Assembly: GCA_977862235.1 (NCBI GenBank)
Contig: OZ374560.1
Coordinates: 124,001-188,000 of the forward strand
Source of the DNA: Dudresnaya verticillata
Lineage: Eukaryota
Length of the DNA stretch: 64,000 bases
Direction: 5' to 3'
Shown: piece by piece, positions 12,362-60,837 of the stretch
Layout: every line of letters begins with the position of its first letter
Position numbering within the stretch: the first letter of the stretch is position 1
Notes under the pieces: generated by a model
Told to the model about the DNA's origin: nothing
Seen by the model: only the letters and a program-made list of their open reading frames with translations
Databases searched by the model: none
Position numbers and translations under genes: made by a program

Positions 12362-13214
12362 TGTGGTGCAAAACGTCTAAGACGATGGACCGCCGAGCAG
12401 TTCGGGGCTCGGTGGGTAGCTGCGCCATCAGCGGTAGGTAGTCCCGCCGTGGGCGACTTGTTGGTAGAGCAAAGGAACACGCCTTGGGCGGACTGTAGAC
12501 GCCCGAGGCGGAAGGTGTGAAGGAAGGGAAAAGGGAACAGAAAGGAACAAAAGGAAAGCACGTCAAGGACGGATAGAGACGTGGAAGCACGGGAAGTAGA
12601 CGCTTAGCCGTAGGCAGCGGTAGGGTACGCGCGTGCGGAACGGGGAAGTCTGGACCAAAGCCGGCTTGTCCGGGATTTACTCTGCGTCTCAGACGGATTA
12701 CCTAATATACTACGTGAGCGACAGCGGCGGGCGTGGTGCGCGGGAACTCAGGACGCGTGTCGCGCCGTCGAGTGCCTGACACGTCGTCGTCGCCATGCAG
12801 CCGCGTGCGCGGGAGCTCAGGAGTAGCTTACAGACGCATGCGTGTAGCGGCGCGGGGAATCCGTATTCGGATCCAGATCCCTGCCAGCATTGCTGGCGCG
12901 CGGCCATTACAGGCGCGCTCCTTACATCACTGTGGATCCGGATGCCGGATCTCGATGTCCCATCCGGATCCGATCCGGATCCGGGCCAAGCTTACAGGCG
13001 GGCGCCTTGCGCCCGGCCGATCGGGATCGTGCATCCGGATCTGGCCGTACAGTGGGCGCGTGCGCCGCGCCGCGCGGGGTAACGGCGGCCGTATGCCCGT
13101 GGGCCAATCGTCCATGACGTGTTCGCGCGCCAACGGCGGTTGACGTGCCATCGATAGACGATGGCATATAATACGCTCACAGCGAAAAAGGGGCAGCCCT
13201 CCCCTTGCACCAGA
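12362..13214 (-). repeat. 3' LTR of element A
   Basis: About 8 differences from 24915-25767 by eye. Confidence 0.95.
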
Positions 13215-13671
13215 CGACCCCCTCGCAAAACGCGAACACGTCCGCCGCAAGCTTGCGTTTCTCTGCGGGTCCCATATCGTTGTGCGTGCGTTCCTGCGTT
13301 CCGGCTGTGCCGTGCTAACTTCGCGTGCTGCGCGTTGCGTCCGGCGAGCTCTCTCTCTCGTGCGTGCTTTTTTCACCGTACACCATCGCCGTTGGCGCCT
13401 TTCGAATCCCGTCAACGATGCCACATCCAATTCGTCGCCTGGGGCGTTTCAGTTGCATCGTCGTCGACGAGTTGTGTGAAGTTCATCGCCCAAGGCGCAG
13501 GTGTTTCCCGTCTGTGACGCAGCTTCATCGTAGTCGCCTGCGGCGCGGAACAAAAGGCGTCTTTGACGTAAGCCGAAAGGATAACCGCCGGTTGCGTGGG
13601 GCAAGAGTCGTCGTTGACGTTTGGTTGACCTTAAGCGCCAGTGGCGTAAACGAAGTTGCGTCGTTGACGAT

Positions 13672-20500: not shown

Positions 20501-22236
20501 GACTGTCGATGCCGCTGCAGAAGATTATTACGTCATCGAGGTAGACGAGGCACGAACGCCACTTGTAACCAGCGAGCAGTATGTCCAACGTTCGTTGAAA
20601 CGTAGCGGGTGCGTTCGTGAGACCGAATGGCATACGCTTATAGCGGAACAGTCCGGCGTGGCACTTGAACGCAGTCTTATTGCGGTCTCGCGGATTGATT
20701 GGCACCTGCCAGTACCCACTGTTACAGTCTAGGGTGGTGAAGACTTTTGCTTCCCCTAGACTGTCAATGCATTCGTCGATACGCGGCAGCGGGTACGTTT
20801 CCCGTATGGTTACTGCGTTTAAACGACGGTAGTCTACGCAAAAGCGGAGGGTCCCGTCCTTCTTGGGGGCGAAGACCACTGGTGACGCCCACGGAGATTG
20901 TGCGGGTTCGACAACCCCTTGACGCAGCATGCGGTCCTCTTCCGCTTGAGCGAGTTGTCTTTGCTTCGGCCCCGCTCGGTAGGGCGGGGACGATATCGGT
21001 CTAGAGCCGGGAAGCAAGTCGATGTAGTGCTCCGTGGTTGAGATTTCTCCCAACGAACCGTCCCACATAGACAAATACTTGCGTAACATCTCCTTAAGCC
21101 GACCTTGATGCTCGGCGGGGAGATGTCCCAGGTCCAGATCGTCTACTGACGGAGGTTTGGCAGTGGTTGCCTCGATAGACTTCGTGAAAGTATCCGGCTG
21201 TGCCGTAGTGTTATCGTTCGTTTGAAAACGGAAATCTTGGGTTGCCTTCTCTTCCTCGGCCTGTTCCTCTGTGAGGCCCAAAAAATCGGCTAGACTTACG
21301 TGACTGGGGAACACTGCTGTCGGATTTGGTAACGCCGTCGCGACGACTTGGCCCTTGGCCAGCGCCTGCGGGCGGGGAGAGAAGTTGGCAACCAGAATAC
21401 GAAACGCTTTTAGCGGTTCCACTTGAGCAATCCCGTTTGTAACGGCCAACCCTTGTTTGTCGTACAGCGTTCCGAACGGTTTAATTGTGATGATGCCGGC
21501 GCGCTCGGTGTTCACCGATACCCATTGCTGCGCCTTAGGCGGGATGATCGCGCGTTCGGCGACTCGGATCTTGGGCGACGTCCTCCCTTCGGCCTTGCCG
21601 TATTCCTGTTCCGTTGGTAACGGAGGATACGACGGAGGTCGGCGCAGCGGGCGGCGCGTTATAGGGACACGAGTCCCGTCATCCAATTCAACCTCGCGAC
21701 TTCGCGGATATATTGCTTCGACAAAGCGGTCGCAAAAGTCGCAGCCGTGTATAACCGGCGCAGCGAGTCGTTCGCAAACGATTAGTTCCAACTTGACGAC
21801 TATCCGTCCTAGACGAACGACCAGGTCGATGGTGCCTCTTGTCTAGATCGCCTTATTGTTGGCGTCGGCTATGACGGGGAGTCTCTTTGCCACGATGCGC
21901 GATCGCGCTTCCAGCGGAATGTCGTCAATGCGAATGAAATTCGGACCAGCCCCCGTGTCGAGGACAGTGCGTTTCGTGCCAAGGTACTAACGGTTGCGCC
22001 CAAATCGGCGTACACCTTATAGTTCCTCTTGGCCATTACGAACAACTGCCCTCGCGCCTGGGGGGCTGATACCGTCGCCATGGGCGTTTTAATGACGTCT
22101 TTGACGACTCTATCCGCCCGTTGGCATCATCAGTAACTAACTTCGGGCCCTCCTTCCGTGTCAGCACCCGAGGCCTAGGCCTCTCTTCACGGTGCGACAC
22201 CCCAGTGTCAGGATTTGGTGCCCGAGTTAGTTTTTC
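17563..22236 (-). pseudogene. pol: pol of element A: protease, RT, RNase H, integrase, chromodomain; several frameshifts
   Basis: VLDTGAGPNF (~21940-21968); FCVDYRRLN, LDCNSGYWQ, YLDD, DASEYQVG, EKECLAVVW (19770-21791); SDNGPQF, YHPQCNGQVERFN, GPY; EYVIERIESH...YRVKWFGYPASANTWEP (~17590-17720). Confidence 0.93.
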
Positions 22237-24787
22237 GCCTGCGGCGGTGGTTGTGGCGCTACATAGCGGTTGATCATCGTCGGATGACGTTCTGCCGCGT
22301 GCGGCATGGGTCCGCCTCGTGGAGATTGTGGTCGTGCAGCACGGCGAGCAGCGTCGCGGGTCGCGCGTTCCTTGCAACGTACATACGCATCAGCGGGGAC
22401 ACCAGCCTTCTCGGCCTCGGTTAGTCCTTTGTAGTTGGTAATAACATTCATGAAGTCGCTCATGCGGAGGAAGCAGTCCGGCGCGATGTGTCCACGGGCG
22501 TAGCATTGGTGGCATATCAACTGCCGACGCGCGTCTTGACGAGGCGGGCCTCTGTCCTGCCATCCGGGCCTTGCTCGGTGAACGTGAGGAGCATACTCGG
22601 AATAGGGGACGCGTGGCGCGGGTACGACCGAGCGCCCAAAGGCGAGAGCAGGGTCCGTATCCCTTTCGTCATCGTCATCGACGTAGCTGTCCGTCGGTAG
22701 AGCCGAGGTTGGCACTGACGCTTGCTCGTCTGCCAAGTACAAATCGCCTTCGGCGTGTATTTCCATGTCATCGACAGGGCGGCAAACGTCTCGGAACTCG
22801 ACGGAGGACTCCGCTATCATAGCGCGCGCTCCAGGCTTGGCGCCTCTCGTCTGCGGACGCAGTACCCCTCGGGCATCGCCGATGGCGGATCGCGGTGTGC
22901 GTACGGCTTGAGCCGGTTTCAGTAGGTCACGTCGTGCTGACGCGGAACCGGCTCTGCCGTGTCGTGCGCGGTTGGCATCCCCTTCGTCTTGTGCGAAGTG
23001 GACCAGCCGCTCAAATGACAACTCCGCCCTTGCCGTTTCTTCTCGGAAGCGAGCGACCAGGGACCTGATCGACGGGTCTAACCCGTCGATATACAGCGTC
23101 ATCTTTTCCCAATCCGGATATACATTACCGCAACGAATACACGCACCGGCTAGCCGCATCCCATAGGTCGTCTCGTCCTCGCCTTGCTTTTGGGCAGTCG
23201 ACCGTAGGGCGAGGACAGCGTCCCTGATCGCCGCTGGCGTAGCATACGTACGGAGGAGGTACTGTACCGCCTCCGGATACGAGGACACTCCGCCGCGATG
23301 GCGAGAAGACGTCGACTTGACGGAGCGGAATTGCGTCCCTGCCGTACCTCGCAAGAAGTACGGCAGTGCGATGAACGCTTGGGCTTCGCTCATCTCCAGC
23401 GTATCGGCTTCATCCGCGTAACGCGTCAGGAACTCGAGGACCATGACAGGGTCGCTGCCGTTGAAGGCGGCGTCCTTCATGGTCAGCTCCAGTCGCTTAA
23501 TGTGGTCCTTGACCTTGCCCGTATCGCGCTCTGAGCGTTTTGCCCTACGTCTTTGAGACGGTAAGTCCGGTACGACAATAGCTGATCGACAAGGGGGTTG
23601 GAGGGGCGTAGCTCCTTCAACCCCTTGAACCGCTTTCCGCGAGGTCTTGCGGCACTGCCGAGAGTCGGGAAGTCGTCGTCTTCAGACGAAGAGTCTGATG
23701 ACTCTCCGTCGCTTGACGAGTCCGAAGAGGACGAGGATGAGTCCCCACGTCGATGACGGTTCTTCTTCCGTCTCTGACGCAGCTTGCGGCGGCGTCTCTT
23801 CCGATCCTTACGTCTGTGACGATCTTCGCCTGAGCTCTCGTCACCCGACGGTGGGCCGTTGCGCCACTTGGCGGTTTCGAGACGCTCTAAGCGAGTCGCA
23901 AGGCGCTGAAAGCGTTCGCGTGAGCCAAGCTCAGAATGCGAATGAACCGTTACTGCCAGCGGTGGTTGTGTACCCTCGCCTTGGGCGGTTTGGTTCGTCA
24001 ATAGACGGTCGAGGTCGGATCGAAACCCTTGTAGGGCGCCGTTCCGATCTTCTTCCAACGTCTGTAGACGACTTGCGATTCCTCCGACACTGTCGTCCAG
24101 CAACCCGGCGAATCGAGCGAGCATCGCATCGTCCTCTAAGAGGCACACCTCTCGGATCCGTTCGCGTGGTATCGTTAAGTTACTCACGCGGACGGCCGAG
24201 GGTGACGCCGTTGGCGGTTGGCTTTCGCGGTTTGACCGGTCGGGTGTCGCTTGCGCCCTTTGACTTGGCGAATTCGGCTTAGCCGGCGAACAACCGGCAC
24301 TGCCGTGGGGAGTGGGGCAACATGCCCCGTGTGTCAATGGTTCGTCAACGACGTTGCGCTCCGCGGAGTGCCCTTGGTCGTCGTTGACGGGAATGGTTGG
24401 TTGATCCGGAAGTTCCGGTTGTCCCTCGACGATGTCGGCTTGTGTTCCGTCTACGACGTCCTGTTGCTCGGCTTGTACTGTATCAGCCGAGTCAACGTAG
24501 GAGCGGTAGGTGCGGAGGGCCGATCCCTCGGGGACTGAGGTGCGGACGATGACGGGGTTGTGCGTCGGCGGGGGAGGTAACTCTCCTCCGTTGAGCGACG
24601 CGTGGGAGCCTGCGTGGCCGTGGCCCGGGGGTAGCGTCGGGAATGCCGACGCGATCTCGGGGCTCACGAGGCGCCCAGACCTCTTTGTCATCCGCTGTAG
24701 CGACCGTTCTGACGCGGGTACACTCCCAGGCGTCGAAGACGGTCTCCTTGAACTTGGACCTCGCGACGGCGGCGGTCGTGAGGCCAT
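22227..24787 (-). pseudogene. gag: gag of element A (one frameshift near 23500-23560)
   Basis: ORFs 23483-24787 and 22227-23480; zinc knuckle CHQCYARGHIAPDC; aligns with the gag of B (YRL...L...M...DG..P..VL.FL). Confidence 0.85.
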
Positions 24788-24894
24788 GATACAATCGTAG
24801 AGTTGCTTGAACGTCGTGGACGATTAGTTACAAACGTCTAAAGACGAAGAGTCAGACGTCGCACGACGGAGAAACTCGTTGAAACGTAGCACAA

Positions 24895-24912
24895 TTCTAG
24901 GTCGGGACACCA
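24895..24912 (-). promoter_or_regulatory. Primer-binding site of A (TGGTGTCCCGACCTAGAA)
   Basis: TGG-initiated 18-mer 2 nt inside the 5' LTR; one mismatch to the PBS at 25779 and 48777. Confidence 0.85.
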
Positions 24913-24914
24913 GA

Positions 24915-25767
24915 TGTGGTGCAAAACGTCTAAGACGATGGACCGCCGAGCAGTTCGGGGCTTGGTGGGTAGCTGCGCCCTCGGCGGTAGGTAGTCCCGC
25001 CGTGGGCAACTTGTTGGTAGAGCAAAGGAACACGCCTTGGGCGGACTGTAGACGCCCGAGGCGGAAGGTGTGAAGGAAGGGAAAAGGGAACAGAAAGGAA
25101 CAAAAGGAAAGCACGTCAAGGACGGATAGAGACGTGGAAGCACGGGAAGTAGACGCTTAGCCGTAGGCAGCGGTAGGGTACGCGCGTGCGGAACGGGGAA
25201 GTCTGGACCAAAGCCGGCTTGTCCGGGATTTACTCTGCGTCTCAGACGGATTACCTAATATACTACGTGAGCGACAGCGGCGGGCGTGGTGCGCGGGAAC
25301 TCAGGACGCGTGTCGCGCCGTCGAGTGCCTGACACGTCGTCGTCGCCATGCAGCCGCGTGCGCGGGAGCTCAGGAGTAGCTTACAGACGCATGCGTGTAG
25401 CGGCGCGGGGAATCCGTATTCGGATCCAGATCCCTGCCAGCATTGCTGGCGCGCGGCCATTACAGGCGCGCTCCTTACATCACTGTGGATCCGGATGCCG
25501 GATCTCGATGTCCCATCCGGATCCGATCCGGATCCGGGCCAAGCTTACAGGCGGGCGCCTTGCGCCCGGCCGATCGGGATCGTGCATCCGGATCTGGCCG
25601 TACAGTGGGCGCGTGCGCCGCGCCGCGCGGGGTAACGGCGGCCGTATGCCCGTGGGCCAATCGTCCATGACGTGTTCGCGCGCCAACGGCGGTTGATGTG
25701 CCATCGGTAGACGATGGCATATAATACGCTCACAGCGAAAAAGGTGCAGCCCTCCCCTTGCACCACA
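24915..25767 (-). repeat. 5' LTR of element A
   Basis: TGTGGTGCAA...TTGCACCACA termini; adjacent PBS. Confidence 0.95.
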
Positions 25768-25778
25768 ACCCAATCGTT

Positions 25779-25796
25779 TGGTCTCCCGACCTAGAA
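25779..25796 (+). promoter_or_regulatory. Primer-binding site of B (TGGTCTCCCGACCTAGAA)
   Basis: Lies 6 nt after the B 5' LTR once A is removed. Confidence 0.85.
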
Positions 25797-25921
25797 CACC
25801 GTCACGGTTGAAAGAAGCAGCCGTCGAAATCCTCTACGGTAGGAATTCGGTTGTAACGATAACCCGCTGCGGAATATTGCATAGACAAGCAATAACAACC
25901 GTTTTGTTCCGTTAATATATC

Positions 25922-28900
25922 ATGCAAAAAGAAGAACACACGGACCCTCCCGTTACGGAACCTACAGCGGGTGACACTGCCCCCGCCTCACGCATTCTGC
26001 GCAGTGAAGGAGGTGAAATTCGTTCCGGAGTGGAGAACCGGAAGACATCTTTAAGGGTGCTTCTGGTAAAGCTCCCCGTTGCCGTGTCGGATCAGACGCC
26101 TCTAAGAAGGCAGCTCCGCAACCCAAGCCGGAATCCCATCGGGTCCACCGGGTCCAGTCCGAGGTCCTTCCTAGGGTGTTAGAGCATCTCCGATTGGAAG
26201 TACAACCTGGAATGGTGAAATAGGTGGAGATATCCCTCTCGGAAACTGTTCTGTCTTTGGTTAAGTCGTATCTGGAACAGCAACTTCCTCGGATAGTGCA
26301 AGCTTTGCAGGAAAAGTGGCCTCTGAGCTCGAGAGCGAGATTTCTCCCGGCATGGCAAGGCCTCCCGCTACGGAATCTTTTACTGAGCAACCACCGTTAC
26401 GGACGGAATGACTTCCCGGTCGAGGGAAGAACACAGCAGCCGCAACAACCCCCCGTTATGGGATTACAGCCGGGTACAGTACCCTCTGGGTAACTGCCAC
26501 CGGGTCCCGTAACGGATTCTCAACATCAATACGCCCCTAAGGGACCAACACACACTCAGTCACTGTCCCGGTCTTCTCTGTAGTATCTCTAAAGCACCAC
26601 CGCGTACGGCGGCCAAACGAGATCCCAAGAAAACCCAAAAGACCTGTCGGATTTCGTAGAAACTGGCCAAGCGTAGAACGGACCTGCGCGCCGGTAGCAA
26701 GCGTGGTACAGGGGGAGCGCGCAGACGAAGTCGTGACCAAAATCTGCGATGAGGACAGAAAATGGCCAAGTCGGGGGTTCAGTTGCTAACTTTACTCCCA
26801 ACCTCTGGCGGGACGGCTTCGTGCCTCTGTTGGCTGAGCCGAGGTATGTGACCGTCTAAGTAGACCCAAAATCGGCCATCTGAGCTATTCTAAGGCTATT
26901 CTACAGTTAGTGGCCGAGGTTACTCACCATGGCCCAAAACATCTTCTCGAATCCTGGCTTCGGGCCAATATTAGAGCCCTACCGAATTAAATCGAGTGCT
27001 TGTCAGTTGATCAGTGGTTGTAGCAGTTAGATTTCCCTTGATTTTTTCGTGCTTGATTCCTTGATATGGTGTCTCGGCCAAATTCTTTTTCCGTAATCCG
27101 ATCCCGTTTTGATCCCGATTGCCCTATCCAGATTACCTCAGTCGCCCAGATATGATCACTCTTCCTTGCGCTGGCCGCGTGGTTGACACGTGCACGCGTG
27201 TGACCCACGTGTCATGCGTGTGGCTCCCTGCCGGTGTCCACCGCCGTCCGCGTGGCCGTACAGTAGTGACTTCGGCCAAGTGTCTCTTGTGAGTTGGCCA
27301 ATTCGGGCGCGTGGCCCGGTCGATAGGCGTGTTTTCGGAGGCTCCTTGCTGTTGCACCACATTCTCCTGGACACGTAGATGTGCCTACGACAGGGCGCTA
27401 TCAGCAAGAGCGCTATACCGTTCCGGTTCGATCAGGTGGAGGCAGCGACCATCTCAGCGATGCGTCCAGCTCACCCCATCCGAGTCAGAGGACCGGTCGA
27501 GGTCGGCATAATCGAGATGCCCGACACTCCTGCTCTGACCCGCCCCGTCGGTCGCACATGGGCGCCCACACCCAGCGACGACGCAATCAAACTGGTACGG
27601 AATCTAATGAGAGCAGCTCAGAGGATAGCCAACACCGCCGCCGAAAGAGGAGAGACAGAAGATCGCGGAAACGCGGAAAAAGGCATGACCCCTCTTCCTC
27701 TACGGATTCAGACTCAGAGAGTTCTTCCGTAACAGATAGAGAGAACAGGCACCGGGCCAGAAAACACGGTGCCAAATCCGGAAAAGTGAGGGTAATCCGG
27801 CCGCTACATGACAAGTTTGTCAAGGCGCTGGACTACTGCATCTACCGATTGGATAAGAGGAGTAAGACTTATGGCTCTAAGTTCTCACAGAACATGAGCC
27901 GTATACGGAAGAAACTCGACGTCCAGATGTCTTCCCATACACTCGATGGGACGGCCCCTATTACCGTCTTGGGATTTCTCGCCAAGTTCCGTGACGGTTG
28001 TAATATCAATGGCATCGCCGAAGGGGTTGCCGTCTGGTGCTTCCAGCTTTTCCGAAAAGTACAAGCCGAAGCCCTTCTACAGGCTAGGCTTGTTGGAGGT
28101 ACTATGGCGGTTGATGTGGTGCAGGCTGAGATGCTCCGCTCATACTCCGAGGTGGTGAATTTCCTACTGAGGACTTACGCTACGGATGAAGTAGTCGCTG
28201 AAGCCTTTACTGGTGTCAGTAATTTCAGGCAAACATCCGCCATGACGGAAGAGCAGTTCTCTAACCAACTCTGGGCAAAGGCTCTCCGCTGTGGTACTGT
28301 ATTTTCCGATCGGGCATTGAAGTCACTGTTCGTCGAGGGGCTCCTACCTGGGACGCGTCAACAGATGCGAAATTATCTTGCAAAGCATTCCCAGCTGGAT
28401 TACCAGGCCATCACTTGTTACGCGACTGGTCTGGGGCAGTCCCATCGGGCAGCTGGACGCCAAACCGTTCCGGCTCACGTCTTTGATGGGTGCACTAAAG
28501 CGCGCCCGTCTAAGGTGTTATCGCTGGATTCCGTACCGGATGTACACTACGAGACGCAGGGACATCTTTCCGCTACGGGTGATCAAGTGCTAGCAGTCGA
28601 GGGAGGCCACGTTGCCGCTACGGTAACAAGTACGGGGGTTACCTTTTCAACCCCGTACTCTTCACCCCCACAAAGCGTTCACCCTACGCCGCCCAGGATG
28701 CCACGCGCGCAAGGTCCCCCCTATGGTGTATCTCGCCCGGCTCCTGGCCCTCAACAGCAGCCGAGTCACCGTTACGGAAATAATGAAATAATGCCCACGA
28801 TGGGTGAGGACAGCAGCAACCAGCACCTCCGCTACGGGATGAGTCGGATTCTCGGGTCCGACGCCTTTACGGAAGTGGCAATTGCCGCATCTGACTTTCC

Positions 28901-29194
28901 GCAGAACATGTCGTTTGCCCGTGGATAAACGACGCCGATCGGGTTAAGCTCATGGAAGAGCGTGAGCGCAACTTCCAGAAGCACTACCCTGTAGCCCGCA
29001 GGTTTGTCGTGGGAACCAGTTCGAATCCGCAAGGGAATCGGGGCAAGCCGCAAACGCGCCCTCCGCAACGGAATGCCCCGATATTATCGGTGGAGGACCG
29101 TGACGGAGTGGAATACGCCGAATTGCGCGAGCCCATGGAGGCGGACCCGACTGGTGCACCCTTGATTTCGGAAAACGCAATGGGGGACGCGTAA
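25922..29194 (+). pseudogene. gag: gag of element B, disrupted by stops and a solo LTR
   Basis: ORF 27381-28928 is homologous to the A gag (LLRTYAT, LRCGTVF, LFVEGL). Confidence 0.75.
26579..27361. mobile_element. Solo LTR inserted in B gag
   Basis: TGTAG...CCACA termini with perfect TSD TTCTC (26574-26578, 27362-27366). Confidence 0.88.
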
Positions 29195-32100
29195 GGGCGC
29201 CGCCATCCCCGCCCCACGGCGTTACACCTCTTGTGAGTGTGGACTCGCCCGGGGATCGGCGAGATACCGATACGGAACTCACATTGGCTTTTCAGACCAA
29301 TGATTCTATATGTGTTATGCAACAACAAAATTATAAAATTCAAATTACCGTGGGACGGACAGATAGCGTGATGCTTCCTATAGTCTCCGTATTGGACTCT
29401 GGCGCGAGGCCAAATCTCATTAGTGCCAGGCGACCTCCCGTGAATGGCTACCCCTCATTCGCCCCGCGACCAGTCCTCCGCTACGGGATGCATCTAATCG
29501 CGCTATCCGCCCCCTTGGTCAGATCCAACTTTTCGTCCGCACAGGAGAGAGCTCCGTGCTCGAGTCCACTCCCTCGTGGTCGCGAACCTAGCTGCTCCAT
29601 GTATTTTGGGAACTAACTTCATCGACCGCTATGTAAAGGCCATCCTTCCCCGTTACGGAAAGTTGTTTTCACCATTACCCCCGGTATCCCTTGTTGGTCA
29701 AGCCAAACTTCCGAAGACGGGTACCGCTGCAACCCTACAGCCCTCATCTTTATCCACCGCTACGGTTTCTTAGAACATTCGTTTAGCAAGATCTACCCTT
29801 ATTCCCCCTATGACTCAAACCCCCTAACAGTTAATACCCCACGGGTGGGTTATGCATTCTACAAAGTCATCCTAAGCCGGCTTTTAAGCACCTTAAGTTA
29901 ATGGCTAATGGTTTTATGGATGTTGTACCTAACAAGCCGTTTCGGATCTGGGTCTCTAATTTTTCTAACAAGCCGGTACGGTTGCCCAAATCTACTGTCG
30001 TGGGCCCGGCTGCTGCTGCCCCTTCTGCTATTTTTACCGTTGACGGTATACCTCCATTTAAGGAAGGGGAGGAATTATTCAATCATTTAATTCTAACCTT
30101 ACCTCCGAAAAGGCCAGCAGCATCTCCCCTCTCGACAATGAAGTAAGCAACCCCGTAACGGAAACTACAAACACTACCGACTGGAATAATCAAGTCCAGA
30201 TCGATAGAGAAGAAGCATCGCTCCGTAAACGGATTTTAACCCTACTCGAGGAATACAAGTCGATGTGGAGTGGCGATCTTGGCAACATTACAGCTGCCAA
30301 GCACCGCATCGAGTTAACTTCCAGAGCTAAGCCAGTATATCAAGCCCCATACTGTGACGGACATAAGCAGCGAGATCTCGAAAAGACAGAGATCGATCGC
30401 ATGCTTTCCGCTAAGGTAATTGAGCCAGCCTCATCGGAGTGGGCCAGTCCCGTGGTTTTCGTTCCAAAAAAGGACTGCACCATGCGGTTCTGTGTTGACT
30501 ATAGAAGGCTCAATTCCGTAACGGTTAGGGACTCATACCCCTTGCCCAGGATGGATGAGTGCATAGATTCCCTTGGGGAAGTTACTGTATTTACAACTCT
30601 GGATTGCAATAGCGGATATTGGCAAGTCGAGATTCCGGAAGAGGAAAGGTTCAAAACTACCTTTACTAGCCATTTTAGCTTATACCGTTTTCGGAGAATT
30701 TGGATTGAATAATGCGCCGGCAACCTTCCAACGGGCAGTGGAAATAATCCTTTCTACGGTTAAACGTTAATTCGCCCTCGTCTACCTAGACGATGTAGTT
30801 GTCTACTCAAAAATCGTTACGGAACATTCCCGCCACCTGAAGGAGGTCCTTACGCTTTTACGATCCGCTGGGTAACGTTGCAGTTGTCAAAGTTTGACTT
30901 CTTCAACGCGTCTGTACAATACCTGGGGCATGTTATACGTCCCGGAAAACTAGAAGTGGATAATCGGAATATCTAATCCGTTAAGGTCGCGAAGCCGCCG
31001 ACTAACCAAACGGAGTTACAATCCTTCTTGGGAATGTGCAACGTGTATCGTCGCTTTCTACCCAACTTCGCTCGGATTTCAGCGCCGCTGAATAAGAAAA
31101 CCGGCAAGGGCTCACCCTTTGAGTTCGGTATATTATCCGATACGGAATACGAAGCCTTCGAGGAACTGAAGAGACGCCTTATCTCTCCACCTATGTTGGC
31201 TCTACCCCGTCACGGATATAAATATACGTTGGACACTGACGCATGTGACCGTCCAGTCGGCTGTGTCCTTCTGCAGGAACAACCGAATAGCGATCACCTC
31301 CCTATTGGATACTGGAGCCGAAGCCTCACCAATGCGGAGAAAAGTTATACTACAACCGAAAAGGAATGCTTAGCCGTGGTCTGGAGCATGTTGACACTCC
31401 GACCATACCTTTACGGCGACACGTTTATTCTCCGAACGGATCACGATGCCCTGCGGTGGATCCTGAACCTCGCAGACTCATCTGGCCGCCTAGCTAGGTG
31501 GAGGCTCCGCCTATCGGAATTTGAATTTGAGGTGCAATACCGTCCAGGAATTAAGCACCAACTCTCCGATGGGATGTCGCGACTCCGAACGGATGGAGGT
31601 GACGATAGACCTTTGGATGAAGAAATACCTTGCTTTGTCGCCGAAAATACCGTCGACGGATTGCATATGAGCCTGCAGTTTATTTGACCGATTGGGCCAC
31701 ATCACAAGAAACCGCTACGGAAAATAACCTAATATGCGCCGTGGAGCCGGCCAGTGGGAGTGCATCCGCCTCCCCTGACAAGCCCGACGCAATACCGTCA
31801 CGGTTTACTGTAATCCAAGAATCCGACGATAAGGATGAGACAATAACCAGGGAGGAGTTCCTCGAAGCGCAAGCCCGAGACCCTTTCTGTCGTCTCAAAG
31901 CCGATACGGTAGGCTCCCCTGGATCACAATTTGACTATGACCGTAATGGATTCTTGGTACGCAAGTCTCAATTGGATGGTGCTCTGCAGAAGGAGGTGCC
32001 AAGCGAACTCCGTGGACGGGTATTGTATTTATCCCACTACACACTGATGTCGGGTCACCCAGGCGGAATTAAGATGTATTATACACTCCGACAGCATTAT

Positions 32101-34340
32101 TATTGGCCTCATATGGCCAACGATGTATTTGAATCCGTTCGGACATGTCGCTCCTGCGTGATGACGAAGGGGAGCCGCTTTCGGAATCAAAGGTTTATGA
32201 AACCTTTCCCCGCTAGCGGACCTTTGGGGTTCGTCGCTATCGACATCCTCGGGCCACTTCCGAAGACAAAACGGGGTTGCAGCTACGTTTTGGTAATTAC
32301 TGATCGGTTCTCTAAGCTGACGCGCTGCATTCCGTTACGGACAACAACAGCCATTGTGCTGGCTAACGCCTTCTTGGACGTTTGGGTGTACGCCTATGGC
32401 GCACCCCAATTTGTCCTAACCGATAACGGACCGCAGTTTACTGCCAAGTTCTTTGATGCAGTGTGTTCCTTACTCGGAGACAGGCATCTACTCACCGCTG
32501 CCTACCATCCGCAGACAAATGGGCAAGCTGAGCGATTTAATAAGACAATCGCCCAGCGTTTGCGCCATTACGTTGAGGATCATCACTCCGATTGGGATTT
32601 GTACCTGCAACCGTTGACGTATGCGTACAACATGCAGGTACACCGTAATACGGAAACAACGCCATTTGATTTGGTGCTGACACGCTGTGGCGCACGGGGG
32701 GCCGAGCTTTTATTTCCTCGCCATGGGCGTCAAGGGGCTCGTCGACCGACGGATGGTCGCCTGAAACGCCTCATTCGCCGTTGGCGCGAACACGTCATCG
32801 ACGATTGGCCTACGGACGCGCGGGCGCCACAACCCCGCGCCGCACACGCCGATGCCCTGTACGGCGCAACGCTGTAGAGCGGATCTGGATGATGCCTCGG
32901 GATCAACGAGGTGTAAGCGGGTTGACTGTCAATTTGGCCCGGATCCCGATTGAATCCGGATCCGACAGTCGGATCGGACATCGGGATCCACTGTAAGGGA
33001 AACGCGCCCGTAATACGGTGCCAATCGCGATCCGAATCCGGATCGCCTACAGTACCGCACAGGCGCCTCTCTGTAAGACGCATGCGCCGGCGTACAGCGG
33101 CTGTATGGTCCGGGACCTGTCAGACGCAACTCCATGCGACACGCGTCCCGGGTTCCCGCGCACTACGTCATGCAGCCGCCGCGCCGCGGCCCCATAGCAT
33201 TACTTAGGTACCTCGTCTAGGACGTAGCAGTAAAGCCCCGGTCAGCCGGTTTGAGTCTAGACTTCCCTTCCGCGACAGTGCGCGCCCTACCGCTGCCCTG
33301 AAACACAAGCGTCTACCTATCCGTGTTTCCACGTTCATAACCGGTGCTAACGTGTTTTCCTTTGGGTTTCTTAGCCCCTTTTCTCTCTCGCCTTGGGTGT
33401 TTACAGTCCGCCCTAGGCGTGTTCAACCTGCTCTACCAAGTTCGCCACCAGCGGCTACCCAGCGGGCTCTCGAACGGCCCCGAGGTGTTTTCCGTCTCTG
33501 GACGACGTCTGCACGACACACGTCACCCATCGGACATTGTTGTACGAGGGGCTCCTGTCGAGAATCAAGAAACCGTTATGGAAGGGCGTGTGACCCCGGT
33601 GCTACAGAAGCGGAGCACCATGCGCCGTTTACGGTATGCGCTCCAGACAGCGCGCACGAAGCAGACAGTGGCTCAGCAAAAATCCAAGGCACTGTTTGAC
33701 CGTAAGGTGCGCTTTAGGCCCATAATCCGTAGCGGAGATCAAGTGTATGTCGACCGGCTGTCCCATAACTTGCGGCCTGCCGAACGCCGTGAACGGGACC
33801 GATTGGAAGGTAAACGGGATGACGTGGGCAAGGTGGCTCAGGAAATGAAGAAACTCCTTCCGAGAGCCACGGGGCCTTATGAAGTGGAATCCGCAACGGA
33901 ACATATGGTTACAATCCGCAAGGAAGGGGTATTAATCAAAGTAAGTTATCAATCGCATCACGAAGGTTCCGATCGGAGTTGCGGTTCAGCCGGCACCCTT
34001 AACAGTGCCGCCTGTCACGCCATCAACCGTCTACGGAGAAGTAGTGCCACATCCAGAAGGTACTACAGTAGCGCCTACACCGTCAGCCGGCATTACACCC
34101 TCCGTAGCGGAACCCCTGCAAGCCGATACGGAATATGTGATCGACAAGATTGTCGGTCACCGCGACGAACCTACTGGGATGACGTACAAAGTCCGCTGGT
34201 ATGGCTACCCGCCGGACCAGGATACATATGAGCCTGCTGAGGAGTTACCGCAAAACGTCATTCATTGCTATCGCAAACAAAAACGCAAGAGCTCCGCTAA
34301 GGGAAAACCACTGCGACGCGCAGCCAAGGTGCGCCGTTAA
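29170..34340 (+). pseudogene. pol: pol of element B: protease, RT, RNase H, integrase, chromodomain; many stops and frameshifts
   Basis: VLDSGARPNL; FCVDYRRLN; VYLDD near 30780; DACDRPVG; TDNGPQF, YHPQTNGQAERFN; GPY; EYVIDKIVGH...YKVRWYGYPPDQDTYEP. Confidence 0.92.
32686..33518 (+). mobile_element. Solo LTR (related to A LTRs) inserted in B integrase
   Basis: TGTGG...CGACA termini; TSD CACGC/CACGT; removing it restores ...LVLTRHPSDI; shares the GATC block and U5-like sequence with A LTRs. Confidence 0.88.
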
Positions 34341-35598
34341 CCGTAACGGAAGACAAGCTACTGTCGCTTGCGGTAATCGCAACTCCCCGCGATGTGCGCA
34401 ACTCCCCGCGATGTGGCGACCCGGTTATGGGAACTGCGTCTTGTCGACGCCTGCTACCGTTACGGGATGTCGTTGTTGCTCAAACTGGGGCATTCCACTC
34501 CGTCACGGATTTTGCCAGCGTGGGTCGCGTACCCTGCTGATGACGCGACCCATTTCCCGAAACGGTACTCTCGTTTTTCCGCAAGATCTCAGCCGGCGTA
34601 CTCTGCTGAGGTTCCACCACTTACGCGGCACTCTTCCGTCACGAAAATCGCGGGAGGGGCACGCCTTTTTCTTGCCATGGGTGGCCGCCCCAGCACGTTT
34701 GGACCAGGAACGGCCTCTTCCGCGACGGTACAGGAAAATTCCTCGGTCTCATTCTTCTCAGAGTCCCGGGTATATGTTAATATTGATGTTAATCTTAATA
34801 TTTTATATAGTTTTCAATATATTATTATATTGAAAATAATATATTAACACCGTCGCGGGTTGTGTTCATCTCAAGAGGGAGGGCTTCGTAGCGTGTCTAA
34901 TAAGGGCAGGGGTGAAGGTATTCGCCCGTAACCGCTACGGATTCCTGATACACGCGGCCTGCGCCGGTTTGTGGCGTACCTAGTCCTCCAGCTTCTCGCC
35001 ACCCAAGTCGGAACACCGTCCGTCAGGGGATAGCTGGTGTGAAGTACCGTCGTCCGATCGGAGTACGAATTGTCCATTGTGGATATGGGAGCGTAATCGA
35101 CTGCGCGTTTGGGCAGACAGTTGGGGAAACTTATTCCGCTACGGTGAGAACAACACTCTCCAAAGGTGTTTGCTCCTTTAGGAGTGGTAGGACCCCCATG
35201 TTGGATTTTTGCAAATGAGGCTGTCTGCGAGGTGCCTGGATTGCAATCCCGTTACGGTGAAAGTGGTACAAGACCTAGTGTCTGCTCCCCTGACACACGG
35301 GAGGAACCCGTTGCGGATGGGTTATGAGCTAGAAGACGACGACCAGCCTGGGCCGTCATCTCTTGCGGATGAGCGCGCCACTCGCGTCAAGCGCGTTTCG
35401 GTTATTCTCCGCGACGGTAGTCCTGGTATCAGAGGTGCGTGGAGTTTCCCAACGCATCGAAGCAAACCGTGACGGCAGTAGAGCAGTTGACGAGAGACCT
35501 GGAAAAGCTGCTCGAACCCGTTGATGGTGCGTTGGACCCTAGTCGGAACTCCGTTAACTTGGGCGCACGAGGACGTGTCGCCATTTAAGGAGGGGGTC

Positions 35599-36272
35599 TG
35601 TGGTGAAGTGAGATTCGGCATCCAAGACGGTGGAAATGCATATAGTGTGGTCTCTACCGTTGTGAGACGTGTGAACGTGTATCCGTGTCGGTTTTGTGCG
35701 CATTGCTCTGCGCTGGTACGCATTGCTGTACAGCAGTGTAGCACACCAACCATACCGGAGTATTTGTAGTATTTATTCTTTATTTTTAGAGAGTTTCTGT
35801 ACAGTGTGTAGAGTAGCGCGCCAGCCAATGAGAATGTTGCGCATGTCCGTGTCGGAGATTGGGACCAGCAGGGCCGATTCCACCATGGGTCCAGACCACT
35901 AGGGTCTGGCCCACACGGACCGGACCGCTCGGTGCCACCCTGACTTGTATATCAGGGCGGCACCGCAGCGGCTCCTAAAGTAAACAGCCAAGCAACCCTT
36001 GAGTCTCAATCCCAATGTAGCTCTTTCCTTTGCGGTTTTCCCCGCGCCGAGCCCGTTGCGGTCTACCACCACCACCGTTACGGAGTCCGTCCCGGCACTT
36101 GTACCCCCCTTGTCTGTTGCTTCCAAATATCCGTTTCGGTTAGCCGTTCGCTGTTCTCCCGTCTCGGTGCGAACTGCTCTACCACCCCGTGGAGGTATTG
36201 TCGCTCTCGTCCCGTGTAGGAAAGTTAGGCCAGCTGTCCGTTACGGAGTTCGTGGGTTTTCACTACACCACA
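35599..36272 (+). repeat. 3' LTR of element B
   Basis: Preceded by a polypurine tract, followed by TSD TCTAC. Confidence 0.95.
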
Positions 36273-46349: not shown

Positions 46350-47079
46350 ACTTTGTTGCGCATTCTGTGCGCGCCACGATGGCAATTCGCATTACACTGC
46401 GCATGCGATACGAAATCGCTGACGCCTCCAGACGAATTCGGAGCTGACCCCGTGATCGCGCGCGCCACGACGGCAATCCGCATTACAGTGCGCACCCAAT
46501 ACGAAATCGCTGATAACTTCGTGGTTTTCCTGTTGTTTCCTGCGCGTAACGGCTCCGAGGCCCACGACGCGCGTGGACCTCCGTATGCATCGCTGGCGCA
46601 CTTCGTAACCGCCACCATACGTGAGATGACCGTTCTTTGACACCGAGGCTGTTACGAATCATTCGAGTACGAAACATCTCCCGCGTTGACGAGTATTCGT
46701 GTTCACGTAGTGGTACTTAGCCATTCGTCTGGCACAACCTCCGAGGGTTTCCGTTAAGCGACTAGCGCCCAGACCTCGGAGTCCTCGGTAAATGCCTGTT
46801 TCTTCGAGTTCGTTGTCCTCGTCTTCGTGACTGCGGACACGGTTGAGCCCCGCTTTCGATAGCCCCGCGCACCTGGAGTCATCGCCGGTGATCGATCGCT
46901 CGAGGCCTCCCTTCCGCGCCCGAATACATTGACACCGTAGTCCTTCGTTTTGTTCGCTCCGTTCTACCACGCTACCACCCCTTTTCCTTTCTCCGTTAGG
47001 CTACGAGGCCACTCATTAGGCTCCGAGGCCTTTGTTTACAGTGCTAGACTCCCTCGCATCACCATGGACTTCGTTATAC
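46350..47079 (+). repeat. Probable 5' LTR of a third gypsy element (H); left boundary unresolved
   Basis: Removing the two solo LTRs gives ...TATACCACA-C-PBS; contains a ~55-bp duplicated block (near 46368 and 46460). Confidence 0.45.
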
Positions 47080-47993
47080 TGTGGTCCAAACGCGTCTGTT
47101 GACGTACTGCACCTCCGGACCGTTCGAAGTCCGGTGGGTAGCCCCTAGAAGCGGGTAGGTGTTGTAGAGCAAAGGGGTCTCGCCGAGGGCGGACTGTAAA
47201 CGCCCTGGGCGGTAAAAGAAAAACAAGGGAAAAAGGGAAAAGGAGGGCAGCAAGAAACACGTCTTGGACACAGTGCGGACTCGGAAGCGCGGTAGGTCAG
47301 ACGCTTGGGCCTCAAGGCTAGCGGGTAGGTACAGTACGCGAGAAAGGTAGTCTGGACCAAGGCCCGCTTGCCGCGAGTTTACCTCAACGTCTGGGACGGA
47401 TAAACTAAGTATAGAACTACCTATCGGCGGCGGTGTGTGCGTGCGCGTCGCGCGGGAACTCGGGACGCATGTTGTCCCGAGGCGCGTCTGACAAGTTCCA
47501 TCCGTCATGCAGCCGCGCGTCTGACAGATCACGCGTAGATCGCCGCGTGAGTGCTTATACGTACACGTGGATGTGCCCCCTTACAGCCACACGCGTCCTG
47601 TAGACCGTGCGATCTTCATTCGTACTAATCCCGATCCAATCCGGATTCGGGTCAGCCATGCGGATGCGCGAGGCTTACAGGCGCGTGCCTTACACTTCTT
47701 GATCCCGATGTCTGATCTCGATGCGGGATCCCGATTGAATCGGGATTCGGGCCACGCTTACAGCGGACGTTCCTGCCACTGTGCGCGCACGCGTGGCGTC
47801 GTACAGTGCTGCGGCGTCTGGCGCGTGATCTGTACGCCAAATGAGCCGTTCTGGTCCGGGTGGCCAGCGTTATGCGTCGGTGACGTGTTTGCGCCGCGGG
47901 CGGGTTGAGCGTGCCGTTGACGGTTGGCCGTCGGTGGACGCATGCTTAGCAACCCGCTCAGAGCGAAAAGAGGGACCCACTCCTGGCACTACA
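47080..47993 (-). mobile_element. Solo LTR related to A
   Basis: TGTGG...CTACA termini; TSD TATAC/TATAT; colinear with LTR A (gggcggactgta, tctggaccaa, GATC block, gcgaaaag). Confidence 0.85.
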
Positions 47994-48003
47994 TATATCA
48001 CAC

Positions 48004-48773
48004 TGTAGCAGTATGGCACCAGCCGGGAACAGCAAAGAACGGAAAAAGACAGCAGTCCGGTATCACAAGCTAATGGGTGGTAGCTCGGAGGAGGTTTGGT
48101 AGAGGCTTAGAAGGGGGCGAGCCCTGATGGCCCGAAAAGGGGCTTGTGGAAGCGCGGTAAAGACTCAGCGCGACCGACTGAGCGAAAATGTAGAGGTTGC
48201 GACCCGGTGTTCCGTAGAGTACTTGTCGTACGATTTCCGGGCCTGTACTAGGCGACCCCTGCAGGCGCGGAGCGTCCGAACGACCAAAAGGTGAACACTT
48301 TCCGAACAAATCCGCTGATCTTTTATTCTGAGGGCGCCGGCTATTCTGGCGCCCATACGTAGGGCTTGACAGCCGTAACGTCTATCAGCCCGAAAGGGGG
48401 TCTAAGTTAGTCTATGATTATAGTTACGTAGGTAAGTACATTCAGTACAAGTTAAAGGTGGGAATGCGTTCCAGTTAGGGGACGTGGTGGCGGATGCGCC
48501 GGTGCTCAAGCCGGGGTCTTGGCTGCATTGTCGATACCCTAAGCGCGGGGGCGCTCCTCGTCCATGAGTAGCAGCGCAGCGGGCTTCATAAATCAGCCAA
48601 TACGAGGCGTGCAGTTGGCGCCACTGTAATGCCACGTGTAGGCCACGTGTACACACGTGTCATCCACATGCATCGCGATGAAAGGACAGCTGTCTCGATT
48701 AAGGGACAGCTTGTCCCGCAAAAAGGAGTGCGCTCCTGTAAGCGCTCCTGCTGACAGCGTCCATTCTGCCACA
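48004..48773. mobile_element. Solo LTR of a different family
   Basis: Terminal inverted repeat TGTAGCAGTATGG / CCATTCTGCCACA; flanks CACAC and CAC (TSD overlapping a CA run). Confidence 0.65.
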
Positions 48774-48776
48774 CAC

Positions 48777-48794
48777 TGGTCTCCCGACCTAGAA
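48777..48794 (+). promoter_or_regulatory. Primer-binding site of element H (TGGTCTCCCGACCTAGAA)
   Basis: Identical to the PBS of B; followed by an ATG ORF at 48847. Confidence 0.85.
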
Positions 48795-48846
48795 CGTGGT
48801 TGCGAAGTTTCGCATTTATTCGTAATTCGCTTCTATCCGAGACACG

Positions 48847-49204
48847 ATGTCTCACGCTCCGAGTCGTCCCGATTCGTCTGCACCGAAACCCGATGACGTA
48901 CCGATTCCGGAGCTTCCGTTGTTCCAATCGAAGCCGAGTGACCGAGAACCGTTTTCTCGCGCTCGCGCTTCGCGTATGACGGAACCCGATCTTCGCGCAG
49001 ACTCGCGTTCGCAGGCTCACGGTAGCCTCTCCGACCTTTCGTATACGTACACTCCGCTGGAAACCGTTCCTTCAGATACCATCGATCGACTCTTCTTGAT
49101 GAAGGAAGTCTCTGGTGCCGAGCTGCGATTACTCTACGAAGAGGTCATCGACGCGCTGTCCACCGCGTACCGTATCACGCAGCTTTCAATTCGTAATACG
49201 CAAA
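48847..49204 (+). pseudogene. gag N-terminus of element H (continues at 51413-51456)
   Basis: ATG ORF just after the PBS; frame continues ...IRNTQ-KLNAIRGIVSAAPPK when 49205-51412 is removed. Confidence 0.55.
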
Positions 49205-50028
49205 ACGTGTATGCTACGTTGGTCACCCACTCGGTATAGAACGGGACCCGATATCTCGAATACGGATCGGTCATCAGCTTGGAACCAAGATACCTTACAC
49301 ACGGGGGGAACTCTGCTGCGAAACATTCGCATATCTCGAACTCACGCCACACAGGCGGCACCTTCAAAAAACAGTGAGGTAACTTACTTCGCTCAATGAG
49401 GTCGACCTGCTTGTCCTGGTAAGGCACAAACACGCCCTTTGGCGATGCGTTTCACATTCCCAACGGATACAACGCTTCCAGAAGAACGTACCCGTCCGAT
49501 GCAGATAACGAAAATCCACTTTTAAGCGTACACCTAAGACGTAAGCCTCTTGCAAAACGCGGGTCTCGATTGACACGCTCACGTGCTTCAGCGATAACGT
49601 CCCAAGACGAGCACCATATTTGGCCTCGCCGGTTGTCCGATATTGCCCGGCGTCAAAGTTGAAGATGGTCGGCCTCAGTGCCGACCCGGGGTAACGCGTG
49701 AAACGTCGATAGACGTCGGAGACGAATTGTGCATGGACATCCGCACGCGACTGCCCAACCTGGACCCAAAGCCATTCTGGACGAACGGCGCAGCGCAACT
49801 TCTACTCTAACGTCCAGACGACGCCAAGAGGCAGGCCCCTGGCAAGCATCCGTTAGTAGCGTAATTAGCGCCCAGTTCATCGCTGCGCGAAGCCTCCTTT
49901 TCGAACCAGGGGGCCCGCGAGAAGAAATGCGCGTAATCGCGAGGACTATTACCGACAAAGTCGACGGGCGATGCGTACACGGGCGCGGCCGAGGGCGACG
50001 CCACCTGCATGCCATTGAATATCGGCAT
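49205..50028 (-). pseudogene. Homolog of the element-A antisense ORF (frameshifted, truncated)
   Basis: RCAVRPEWLWVQVGQSRADVHAQFVSDVYRR...FDAGQYRT...LGTLSLKH...HRTGTFFW.RCIRWECET...IERSKLPHCF matches 13800-14648. Confidence 0.85.
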
Positions 50029-51407
50029 AACGTCGAAGACGAAGAGCCGATTTACGCCGCTGGCGATGTATTCACGAACGTCAAAAGAAGACTACTATCC
50101 AACCCCACAGGCGAAAGGGTCACAACGTACGTCAAAAACGATTGCTGTTCAACGCCACAGGCGATACAAAGCAATCTGTGTCAACGACGTTCGGTCACAA
50201 CGCCACAAGCGATAAGAGAAAGACGATAACGCCGAGGATGGTTGAGGTTGCGACGCCAAGCGGCGAGGGAAACTGCACGACGTCAACGACGGAAATCGGA
50301 ACGCGCCACGGGCGGTGATGTCGGTGTAGTGCAAGGGCACGCAGCGCGCAACACGAGCGGAGTTCGCACGGCACAGCCGAAGTCGCAAAGCGCACGCCCT
50401 GACGCACCAAGATGAGGCGCAGGAGCGGTCAAAGACGAAGGCAAGCGCGCAGCAGCAGGTTGAGGCTCGGACGTGTTCACGTTTTGGAGGGGGGTCGTGT
50501 GGTGCAAGGGGGGTGAGTCCCTTTTTCGCTGAAAGCGGAGTGACAAATACGTCGACCGACGGAGAAACCGCCACCGGCGCTCACTACCGCCGTTGGCGCG
50601 CGAAAACGTCATCGACGGCTCACTGGGGCGCGCGCCCACGTTGCGCGCCGCGTGCCATGCCGGCACTGTACGGTGACAGGCCGACATGGCGCCCCAGGGT
50701 ACTGTAACATGGATCCAGATTGGATCCGGATCCGGTATCCAGATTGGCTATCTGGATCGCCTACGCTGTGATGTACGCGCCTGTTAGACTGCGAGTGTTC
50801 GCATTGCTGGCCCGGATCGGGATTGGGGTCAGGATCGGACAAGTATTGGATTAGATCAGGATCGCGCGCTCTACAGTGCACGCGCACGCAGAACTGTAAG
50901 GCGCACGCGTCCACGTGTGTGTAAGCGCCCACGCAGGGTGCGTCGTGGCAATCTGCCAGACGCGCGGCTGCATGCGGTGAGCGATCTGTCAGACGCACCT
51001 CGGGACGACACGTGTCCCGAGTTCCCGCGGTGCGCACCCACGCCGCCGCCGCCGGCACGCCGTAGTGCTACACTTAGGTAAACCGTCCCAGACGTAGCAG
51101 TAACTCCTGGTAAAGCCGGTCTTGGTCCAGACTACCCCTCCCGCGCTACGCGTACCTACTCGCAAGCCCTGATACACAAGCGTCTGACCTACCGCGCTTC
51201 CGCGTCTACCTACCGTCCGAGACGAGCTTCCTTCTACCCCTCTTTTCCCTTTCTGTCCTGTGTTTCTACGCTTTCCGCCAAGGGCGTTGTACAGTCCGCT
51301 TTTGGCGAGTCCCTTCAGCTCTACCACCCTTTCCCCGCCATCCGCGGCTACCCACCGGACATCGAACGGTCTGGGGTTGCAGCTCGTCAACAGACTTTTG
51401 CGCCACA
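49205..51407 (+). mobile_element. 5'-truncated A-family element (D): antisense-ORF segment, PPT and 3' LTR (50498-51407)
   Basis: Homologous to the reverse complement of 12362-14460; GGAGGGGGGTCG before TGTGGTGCAAGG; GCAAA on both flanks. Confidence 0.85.
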
Positions 51408-51456
51408 GCAAAAATTGAACGCTATTCGTGGCATCGTGTCCGCCGCGCCACCGAAG

Positions 51457-60762: not shown

Positions 60763-60837
60763 GCAGTAATCGTCCTTTCCCGAGGGGGCAGCCTCCCACA
60801 GTAATCGCCCTTTCCCGAGGGGGCAGCCTCCTGGCTG

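What the first reader, a model, noticed from the sequence alone, without database searches (positions are those of the whole stretch)
47070..48794. Two solo LTRs inserted 5 bp apart at a host 5'-LTR/PBS junction
Seen: removing 47080-47993 (TSD TATAC/TATAT) and 48004-48773 (target CACAC) reconstructs ...CGTTATACCACA-C-TGGTCTCCCGACCTAGAA, an LTR end followed by its PBS. Two different LTR families hit adjacent 5-mers. The first is antiparallel to the host, and the second probably is too. With the A-in-B insertion this makes three events at the same landmark in one window. Inference: an integration hotspot or true targeting of other retroelements' LTR/PBS junction, which disables the host element and avoids genes.
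Basis: partly seen in the sequence, partly recalled or inferred. Interest (0 to 1): 0.75.

Follow-up and report, generated by a model that had tools for sequence, protein, structure and literature searches.

The report
Retrotransposons piling up at primer sites
In this red-alga-like DNA, three separate retrotransposon insertions lie within 11 bases upstream of the primer-binding site of older retrotransposons, all facing backwards, which likely marks an insertion hotspot, though five other nested insertions lie elsewhere and no genome-wide test was possible.

Summary
Observation confirmed, with one correction. LTR1 (47080-47993, flanks TATAC/TATAT) and LTR2 (48004-48773) are solo LTRs of different families, both antiparallel to host H, inserted at adjacent 5-mers directly upstream of a primer-binding site (PBS, 48777). 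LTR2's right-hand duplication is 3 nt (CAC), not 5. Element A sits 7-11 nt upstream of the identical PBS of element B. A and B are chromodomain Ty3/gypsy elements whose closest named relatives are red-algal. So 3 of 8 events hit the junction (uniform chance about 3e-7; 6e-5 if LTR1/LTR2 count once; the landmark was chosen after the fact). That indicates a hotspot, not strict targeting. None of 23 relatives with this PBS from other organisms shows the long-gap signature of A-in-B, and none of the 20 that could be oriented shows an antiparallel insert, but these are short, mostly collapsed contigs. No genome or reads were available. Best reading: a junction-positioned hotspot on top of chromodomain-type nesting (0.5). 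The scan had not noted this on other DNA.

The parts
46520..47079 (+). 3' (U5-like) part of host H 5' LTR; start coordinate approximate, true LTR start not found
   Evidence: Pyrimidine excess +0.25 and CTACCAC motifs shared in position with oriented LTRs; no TGTGG start matching its end found in 45000-46800
47075..47079 (+). Left TSD of LTR1 (TATAC), 10 to 6 nt upstream of the PBS on the empty site
47080..47993 (-). LTR1: solo LTR of the A family, antiparallel to H
   Evidence: 64-71% identity to A, L3 and L4 LTRs; global z 20-37 only as reverse complement
47994..48003 (+). 10-nt spacer: right TSD of LTR1 (TATAT, one mismatch) plus left TSD of LTR2 (CACAC)
48004..48773 (-). LTR2: solo LTR of an unrelated family, antiparallel to H
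   Evidence: Terminal inverted repeat 7 of 8; minus-strand U5 composition, motif, AATAAA and TATA-like sites; no relative in window
48774..48776 (+). Shortened right TSD of LTR2 (CAC)
   Evidence: loss of one CA unit is inferred
48777..48795 (+). PBS of host H, 19 nt identical to B's PBS
   Evidence: same motif follows an LTR end in 23 external loci
48847..49203 (+). ATG-initiated gag-position ORF of H, cut by E4
   Evidence: no Pfam hit and no homolog found, so 'gag' rests on position only
49205..51407 (+). E4: 5'-truncated A-family element (3' region, PPT, 3' LTR 50498-51407), sense to H, flanked by GCAAA/GCAAA; nested insertion away from the PBS
   Evidence: protein similarity to A's antisense ORF stops at this boundary
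11686..36272 (+). Element B, chromodomain Ty3/gypsy, TSD TCTAC, LTRs 94.2% identical; PBS 25779-25797
12362..25767 (-). Element A, chromodomain Ty3/gypsy, LTRs 99.1% identical, TSD ACCCA 11 to 7 nt upstream of B's PBS; its own LTR/PBS junction (PBS 24894-24912) is not hit
26579..27361 (-). L6: probable solo LTR in B's gag region, TSD TTCTC/TTCTC, about 800 nt downstream of the PBS
   Evidence: scan; weak similarity to A-family LTRs as reverse complement (z 2.2-3.8); TSD plus termini alone arise by chance 0.23 times per shuffled window
32686..33518 (+). L3: A-family solo LTR in B's integrase, sense, TSD CACGC/CACGT

Best explanation
Three integrase-type insertions (A, LTR1, LTR2) lie within 11 bases upstream of an identical 19-nt primer-binding site in two older Ty3/gypsy elements, and this likely reflects a real but non-exclusive insertion hotspot at the 5'-LTR/PBS junction. 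Shown: separate target duplications, antiparallel orientation, two incoming LTR families, two hosts, and insertion of A long after B (LTR identity 99.1% against 94.2%), so the target was chromosomal. Inferred, step 1: the chromodomain-bearing integrases draw new copies into older retrotransposons generally; all four A-family insertions in the window lie in other gypsy elements. Inferred, step 2: within such a host, the junction is favoured because something fixed at or beside the PBS (a bound protein or a nucleosome edge) positions the intasome a few bases upstream, as the Pol III machinery does for Ty3 and Tj1. Later LTR-LTR recombination would have reduced two of the inserts to solo LTRs.
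For: 3 of 8 nested events fall in 3 x 15 bp of 26,351 host bp: P = 2.8e-7; 2 of 7 with LTR1/LTR2 merged: P = 6e-5; with a 30-bp window 2e-6 and 2.4e-4. The hit 5-mers differ (ACCCA, TATAC, CACAC) and the upstream LTRs of B and H are unrelated (z -0.2), while the PBS downstream is identical. 2 of 3 U5 ends followed by this PBS are hit; of 8 U5 ends without a PBS, at most one has an insert within 15 bp (LTR2's own end, if LTR1 came second; tallied). No shared hairpin or palindrome at the sites (fold z between +0.85 and -2.2; palindromic pairs 0-4 of 10 against a background of 2.5). Chromo domains in A and B (Pfam PF00385, E 1.6e-10 and 1.8e-11).
Against: Five of 8 events lie elsewhere, including 2 of 4 from the A/LTR1 family. 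A's own junction is not hit. The landmark and the window were both chosen after seeing the cluster, so the P values are optimistic. In 23 external loci with this PBS the LTR end lies 1-4 nt from the PBS in all 23. Of these, 20 could be judged native by composition or by family alignment, and none of the 20 carries an antiparallel insert; no reverse-complement PBS (up to 3 mismatches) was found elsewhere in them. In land plants LTRs are the least-hit regions (PMC6911290, section 7 read). No positioning factor was identified. LTR2's TSD is imperfect, and B's LTR-to-PBS gap (6 nt) is longer than any other seen.
Confidence: 0.5

Rival explanations
1. No junction preference: chromodomain elements nest broadly in older elements, and this window was picked out of a very large scan because of a rare cluster. 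LTR1 and LTR2 may be one non-independent pair (second insertion drawn to the first), leaving a two-event coincidence.
For: Five of 8 events are elsewhere; 0 of 20 judgeable external junctions are hit; double insertion at one site is documented in Drosophila (PMC5932611, passages read). With a 30-bp window P is 2.4e-4 before allowing for several landmark types and many windows.
Against: Needs two coincidences: two hosts hit at nearly the same offset (TSDs at -11..-7 and -10..-6) and a second family hitting the adjacent 5-mer. The external loci are short or collapsed contigs from other organisms and have little power.
Confidence: 0.24
2. The attraction is the LTR end itself (the CCACA/CTACA integrase-binding terminus) or a taste for alternating purine-pyrimidine DNA, not the PBS.
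For: All three TSDs lie in or overlap the last 9 nt of the host LTR. Purine-pyrimidine alternation is 8, 7 and 8 of 10 at LTR1, LTR2 and L3 (background mean 5.0; 19% reach 7, 7% reach 8).
Against: U5 ends without a PBS are mostly not hit (0-1 of 8). A, E4, L6 and B sites have ordinary or low alternation (6, 6, 2, 5). A 7-19% motif cannot give a roughly 200-fold local excess.
Confidence: 0.18
3. LTR2 is not an insertion but the native 5' LTR of the PBS at 48777 (LTR end, 3-nt spacer, PBS), leaving one insertion here.
For: A 3-nt spacer is normal for this clade (1-4 nt in 23 of 23 external loci). LTR2's right flank is not a full 5-mer duplication. LTR2 has no relative to orient it by alignment.
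Against: Four U5/R features lie on LTR2's minus strand and none on its plus strand, and the stretch before 47079 carries plus-strand U5 features.
Confidence: 0.05
4. The tRNA primer left on the incoming cDNA pairs with the chromosomal PBS and guides insertion, or nesting happened between cDNAs before integration.
For: Incoming A and hosts B and H share nearly the same PBS.
Against: Primer pairing would put the incoming U5 end next to the host PBS in sense orientation; all three inserts present the opposite end. A's LTRs are much younger than B's (99.1% against 94.2%), which excludes joint integration.
Confidence: 0.03

Closest known systems
Tj1 (Schizosaccharomyces japonicus) and Ty3 (S. cerevisiae): Ty3/gypsy elements that integrate just upstream of Pol III genes (PMC4600332, abstract and passages read)
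   Same: Ty3/gypsy integrase, 5-bp TSD, insertion within about 12 bp of a short conserved landmark; Tj1 also has a fixed orientation.
   Different: The landmark here is another element's LTR/PBS junction, not a tRNA gene (no tRNA gene in the window). Preference is partial (3 of 8), not 16 of 17, and is read from old insertions, not from a transposition assay.
Chromovirus nesting in heterochromatin (MAGGY chromodomain reading H3K9me2/3; as summarised in PMC3350952, passages read)
   Same: A and B have a chromodomain downstream of the integrase; all four A-family inserts lie in other gypsy elements.
   Different: Chromodomain targeting is regional and does not by itself give base-level precision.
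Region-biased nesting of plant LTR retrotransposons (Jedlicka et al. 2019, PMC6911290; section 7 and passages read)
   Same: Nested gypsy elements are unevenly spread along their hosts.
   Different: There the 3' UTR and interdomain regions are favoured and LTRs are the least hit; no LTR/PBS peak appears in the parts read.
Double insertion at one target (McGurk and Barbash 2018, PMC5932611; passages read)
   Same: Two elements end to end with target-duplication sequence between them.
   Different: Here the two LTRs are of different families and use adjacent, different 5-mers.

Membership tests
Ty3/gypsy LTR retrotransposons (elements A and B) | RT, RNase H, integrase order between two LTRs | tested here: met
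   Pfam RVT_1, RT_RNaseH, then Integrase_H2C2/rve in both
Ty3/gypsy LTR retrotransposons (elements A and B) | TG...CA LTRs, PBS, PPT, 5-bp TSD | tested here: met
   A's 3' LTR start and B's 5' LTR end each differ slightly from their partner LTR
Chromoviruses | Chromodomain downstream of the integrase core | tested here: met
   PF00385 in A (17563-17898, minus) and B (34080-34337); frame continuity with the integrase not checked
Chromoviruses | RT phylogeny inside the chromovirus clade | not tested
   No tree built; best named RT hits are Agarophyton chilense proteins at 53-57%
Solo LTR (LTR1) | Single LTR of a known family bounded by a TSD | tested here: met
   TSD 4 of 5
Solo LTR (LTR2) | Single LTR of a known family bounded by a TSD | tested here: inconclusive
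   Termini and U5 features fit; no family relative found; right TSD 3 nt
Ty3/Tj1-type position-specific integration | Target is a Pol III gene start | tested here: not met
   No tRNA gene in the window; the landmark is an LTR/PBS junction
Ty3/Tj1-type position-specific integration | Most insertions fall in a narrow window at the landmark | tested here: not met
   3 of 8 nested events; 2 of 4 for the A family
Ty3/Tj1-type position-specific integration | Integrase tethered by a factor bound at the landmark | not testable with these tools
   Needs biochemistry or de novo insertion mapping

The most novel reading that the evidence does not exclude
A red-algal chromovirus clade whose integrases home on the primer-binding site shared by the clade, landing antiparallel within about 11 bp upstream of it. 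That would be a Ty3/Tj1-like precision mechanism aimed at other retrotransposons instead of tRNA genes, cutting a competitor's promoter off from its primer site.
Probability: 0.25. Interest if true: 0.8.

Novelty: new variant of a known kind. Interest (0 to 1): 0.45.

Why it matters
Base-precise targeting by LTR retrotransposons is known for host landmarks such as tRNA genes. A hotspot on the LTR/PBS junction of other elements would be a new landmark and a direct route by which retrotransposons inactivate each other in repeat-rich red-algal genomes. It would also bias annotation, because tools that need a PBS next to the 5' LTR would misread or drop such hosts. It is cheap to test with one long-read genome. 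If no peak appears, this is an ordinary nest.

Tried and rejected
No whole genome is held for the window. Viral contigs: 0 PBS matches and no RT relative. Of 10 PBS matches in prokaryotic genomes, 4 (L018, L020, L024, L026) were dropped as chance bacterial hits (no LTR end before the motif, no RT similarity); 6 were kept. A search of the two MAGs G001 and G002 gave no new PBS sites. H's ORF: no homolog among longer proteins (weak evidence) and no Pfam hit; two further search tools were busy and gave no answer. Local alignment could not orient LTR2 or H. Termini-plus-TSD scans are unspecific: 2.8 hits with up to one mismatch per shuffled window against 2 observed, so the candidates at 8170-9017 and 7813-8671 were not counted. 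Hairpin and palindrome explanations were not supported. The primer tRNA was not identified; the PBS string is in no searched paper. Seven paper searches showed no report of an LTR/PBS junction hotspot or of red-algal insertion preference; most were seen as listings only, and subscription journals are not covered. PMC6317226 was searched for red-algal terms without result. No supplements were read; those of PMC6911290 list hotspots and may bear on novelty.

Full report
Setting. The window is eukaryotic and rich in retrotransposons. Elements A (12362-25767, minus) and B (11686-36272, plus) encode RT, RNase H and integrase in gypsy order, and both have a chromodomain. The best named relatives of A's RT region are Agarophyton chilense proteins at 53-57% identity, so the source is probably a red alga (inference). 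No genome was held and no sequencing run was listed. All counts therefore rest on this window and on 23 external loci.

The junction. LTR1 spans 47080-47993 with flanks TATAC and TATAT. LTR2 spans 48004-48773 with left flank CACAC and right flank CAC, followed at once by the PBS at 48777. The 8-bp terminal inverted repeat and the TGTRG start shared by the LTRs here favour the end at 48773, so one CA unit of the duplication was probably lost. The 10 nt between the LTRs match both outer flanks, so these are two integration events. On the empty site the two targets lie 10-6 and 5-1 nt upstream of the PBS. Their order cannot be told.

Orientation. LTR1 belongs to the A family and aligns only as reverse complement to LTRs oriented by their PPT or PBS (z 20-37 against at most 2.5). 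LTR2 has no relative, so I tested whether it could be the native 5' LTR of the PBS; its 3-nt gap would be normal, since 23 of 23 external loci have 1-4 nt. In 17 of 17 external loci with at least 200 nt upstream, the U5 end is pyrimidine-rich (+0.06 to +0.26). LTR2 shows this only on the minus strand (+0.22 against -0.01), along with a CTCTACCA motif at the position it has in four oriented LTRs, AATAAA and TATA-like sites. The stretch before 47079 has the plus-strand signs. LTR2 is therefore an antiparallel insert and H is a plausible host, although H's LTR start and a second H copy were not found and its ORF has no detected homolog.

The third event. A is bounded by ACCCA/ACCCA, 11-7 nt upstream of B's PBS, which is identical to H's over 19 nt. 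A's LTRs are 99.1% identical and B's 94.2%, so A entered a chromosomal B. B's reconstructed LTR end lacks one base against its 3' LTR and stands 6 nt from the PBS; this is unexplained.

L3 (32686-33518), an A-family solo LTR, sits in sense in B's integrase. E4 (49205-51407), a 5'-truncated A-family element, sits in sense in H's ORF between GCAAA copies; its protein similarity to A's antisense ORF ends at that boundary. L6 (26579-27361) is a probable antiparallel solo LTR in B's gag region, with weaker support. Two more events have no checkable TSD: the LTR-like L5 at 51457 and a copia-like element from about 53802 in L5's second repeat. A's own junction is untouched. The tally is 3 of 8 events at the junction (3 of 6 with TSDs), and 2 of 4 for the A family.

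Chance. With three 15-bp windows in 26,351 bp of host sequence, 3 or more of 8 has P = 2.8e-7, and 2 or more of 7 (LTR1 and LTR2 merged) has P = 6e-5; with 30-bp windows 2e-6 and 2.4e-4. These ignore the after-the-fact choice of landmark and the size of the scan, so chance is unlikely but not excluded. Three of three antiparallel is not significant, and sense inserts before a PBS would be easy to miss.

Outside evidence. The PBS was found in 17 metagenome contigs and in 6 retroelement-like contigs inside two bacterial MAGs (4 further hits dropped as chance). All 23 have an LTR end 1-4 nt from the PBS, so none shows the long gap of A-in-B. Twenty could be judged native by composition (17) or by alignment across the junction to family members (3 more), and none of them carries an antiparallel insert; 3 were too short to judge. 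One (L013) lies antisense inside another element's RT, a nested insertion away from any PBS. These are short or collapsed contigs from other organisms, so they show only that the pattern is not universal in the clade.

Mechanism. The hit 5-mers differ and the host LTRs are unrelated, while the PBS is shared. U5 ends without a PBS are mostly spared (0-1 of 8, against 2 of 3 with it). No common hairpin or palindrome was found, and purine-pyrimidine alternation is raised at only three of seven sites. I therefore favour regional nesting by chromodomain integrases plus positioning by something fixed at or beside the PBS; both steps are inferred. Guidance by the tRNA primer predicts the opposite orientation and is disfavoured.

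Comparison. It works like Tj1 and Ty3, which insert within about 12 bp of Pol III genes, Tj1 in fixed orientation (PMC4600332, abstract and passages), but it fails their defining features: no tRNA gene and only partial preference. Chromodomain targeting is regional (PMC3350952, passages). In land plants LTRs are the least-hit regions (PMC6911290, section 7). Double insertion at one site is known (PMC5932611, passages). Seven searches showed no report of an LTR/PBS hotspot, and the scan's earlier notes held none.

Verdict. The anatomy is real. A non-exclusive hotspot is the best reading (0.5); true PBS homing remains possible (0.25). One long-read genome would settle it. Interest 0.45.

Noticed in passing
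window 49200-51412: E4 is cut exactly at its left target duplication (GCAAA/GCAAA) with no trace of a 5' LTR: an LTR element integrated with one normal and one truncated end, or a deletion ending exactly at the TSD.
   Followed up: partly
window 13668-15931 (+): A carries long reading frames antisense to gag-pol in its 3' region, conserved at protein level in E4; no Pfam match.
   Followed up: partly
window 25773-25778: B's LTR-to-PBS gap is 6 nt and its 5' LTR end lacks one base; every other junction seen has 1-4 nt.
   Followed up: partly
window 57431-63089: Split direct repeats (57431-57563/57897-58031 and 57615-57900/62804-63089) around minus-strand frames with a weak tyrosine-recombinase hit (E 0.029): probably a DIRS/Ngaro-type element inside a copia-like element (DUF1759 at 56188, protease at 62989).
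   Followed up: no
window 18-1774 and 2385-4177: Inverted repeat of about 1.8 kb, 88% identical, with a 12-bp tandem array in one arm.
   Followed up: no
window 51457-53800: LTR-like pair (51457-52149, partial copy 53552-53800, 80%) with no tRNA-type PBS after the first repeat; short internal stretch.
   Followed up: no
window 46369-46513 and 36320-36360: 91-bp tandem duplication upstream of H's U5 region; a similar motif lies in B's right flank, perhaps a small dispersed repeat.
   Followed up: no
L019, L021-L023, L025, L027 (G001, G002): Two bacterial MAGs contain gypsy retrotransposon contigs similar to this window's elements, probably algal contamination.
   Followed up: partly
L016 and L025: The LTR upstream of the PBS is itself preceded by a purine-rich PPT-like tract: collapsed assembly or tandem elements sharing an LTR.
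   Followed up: no
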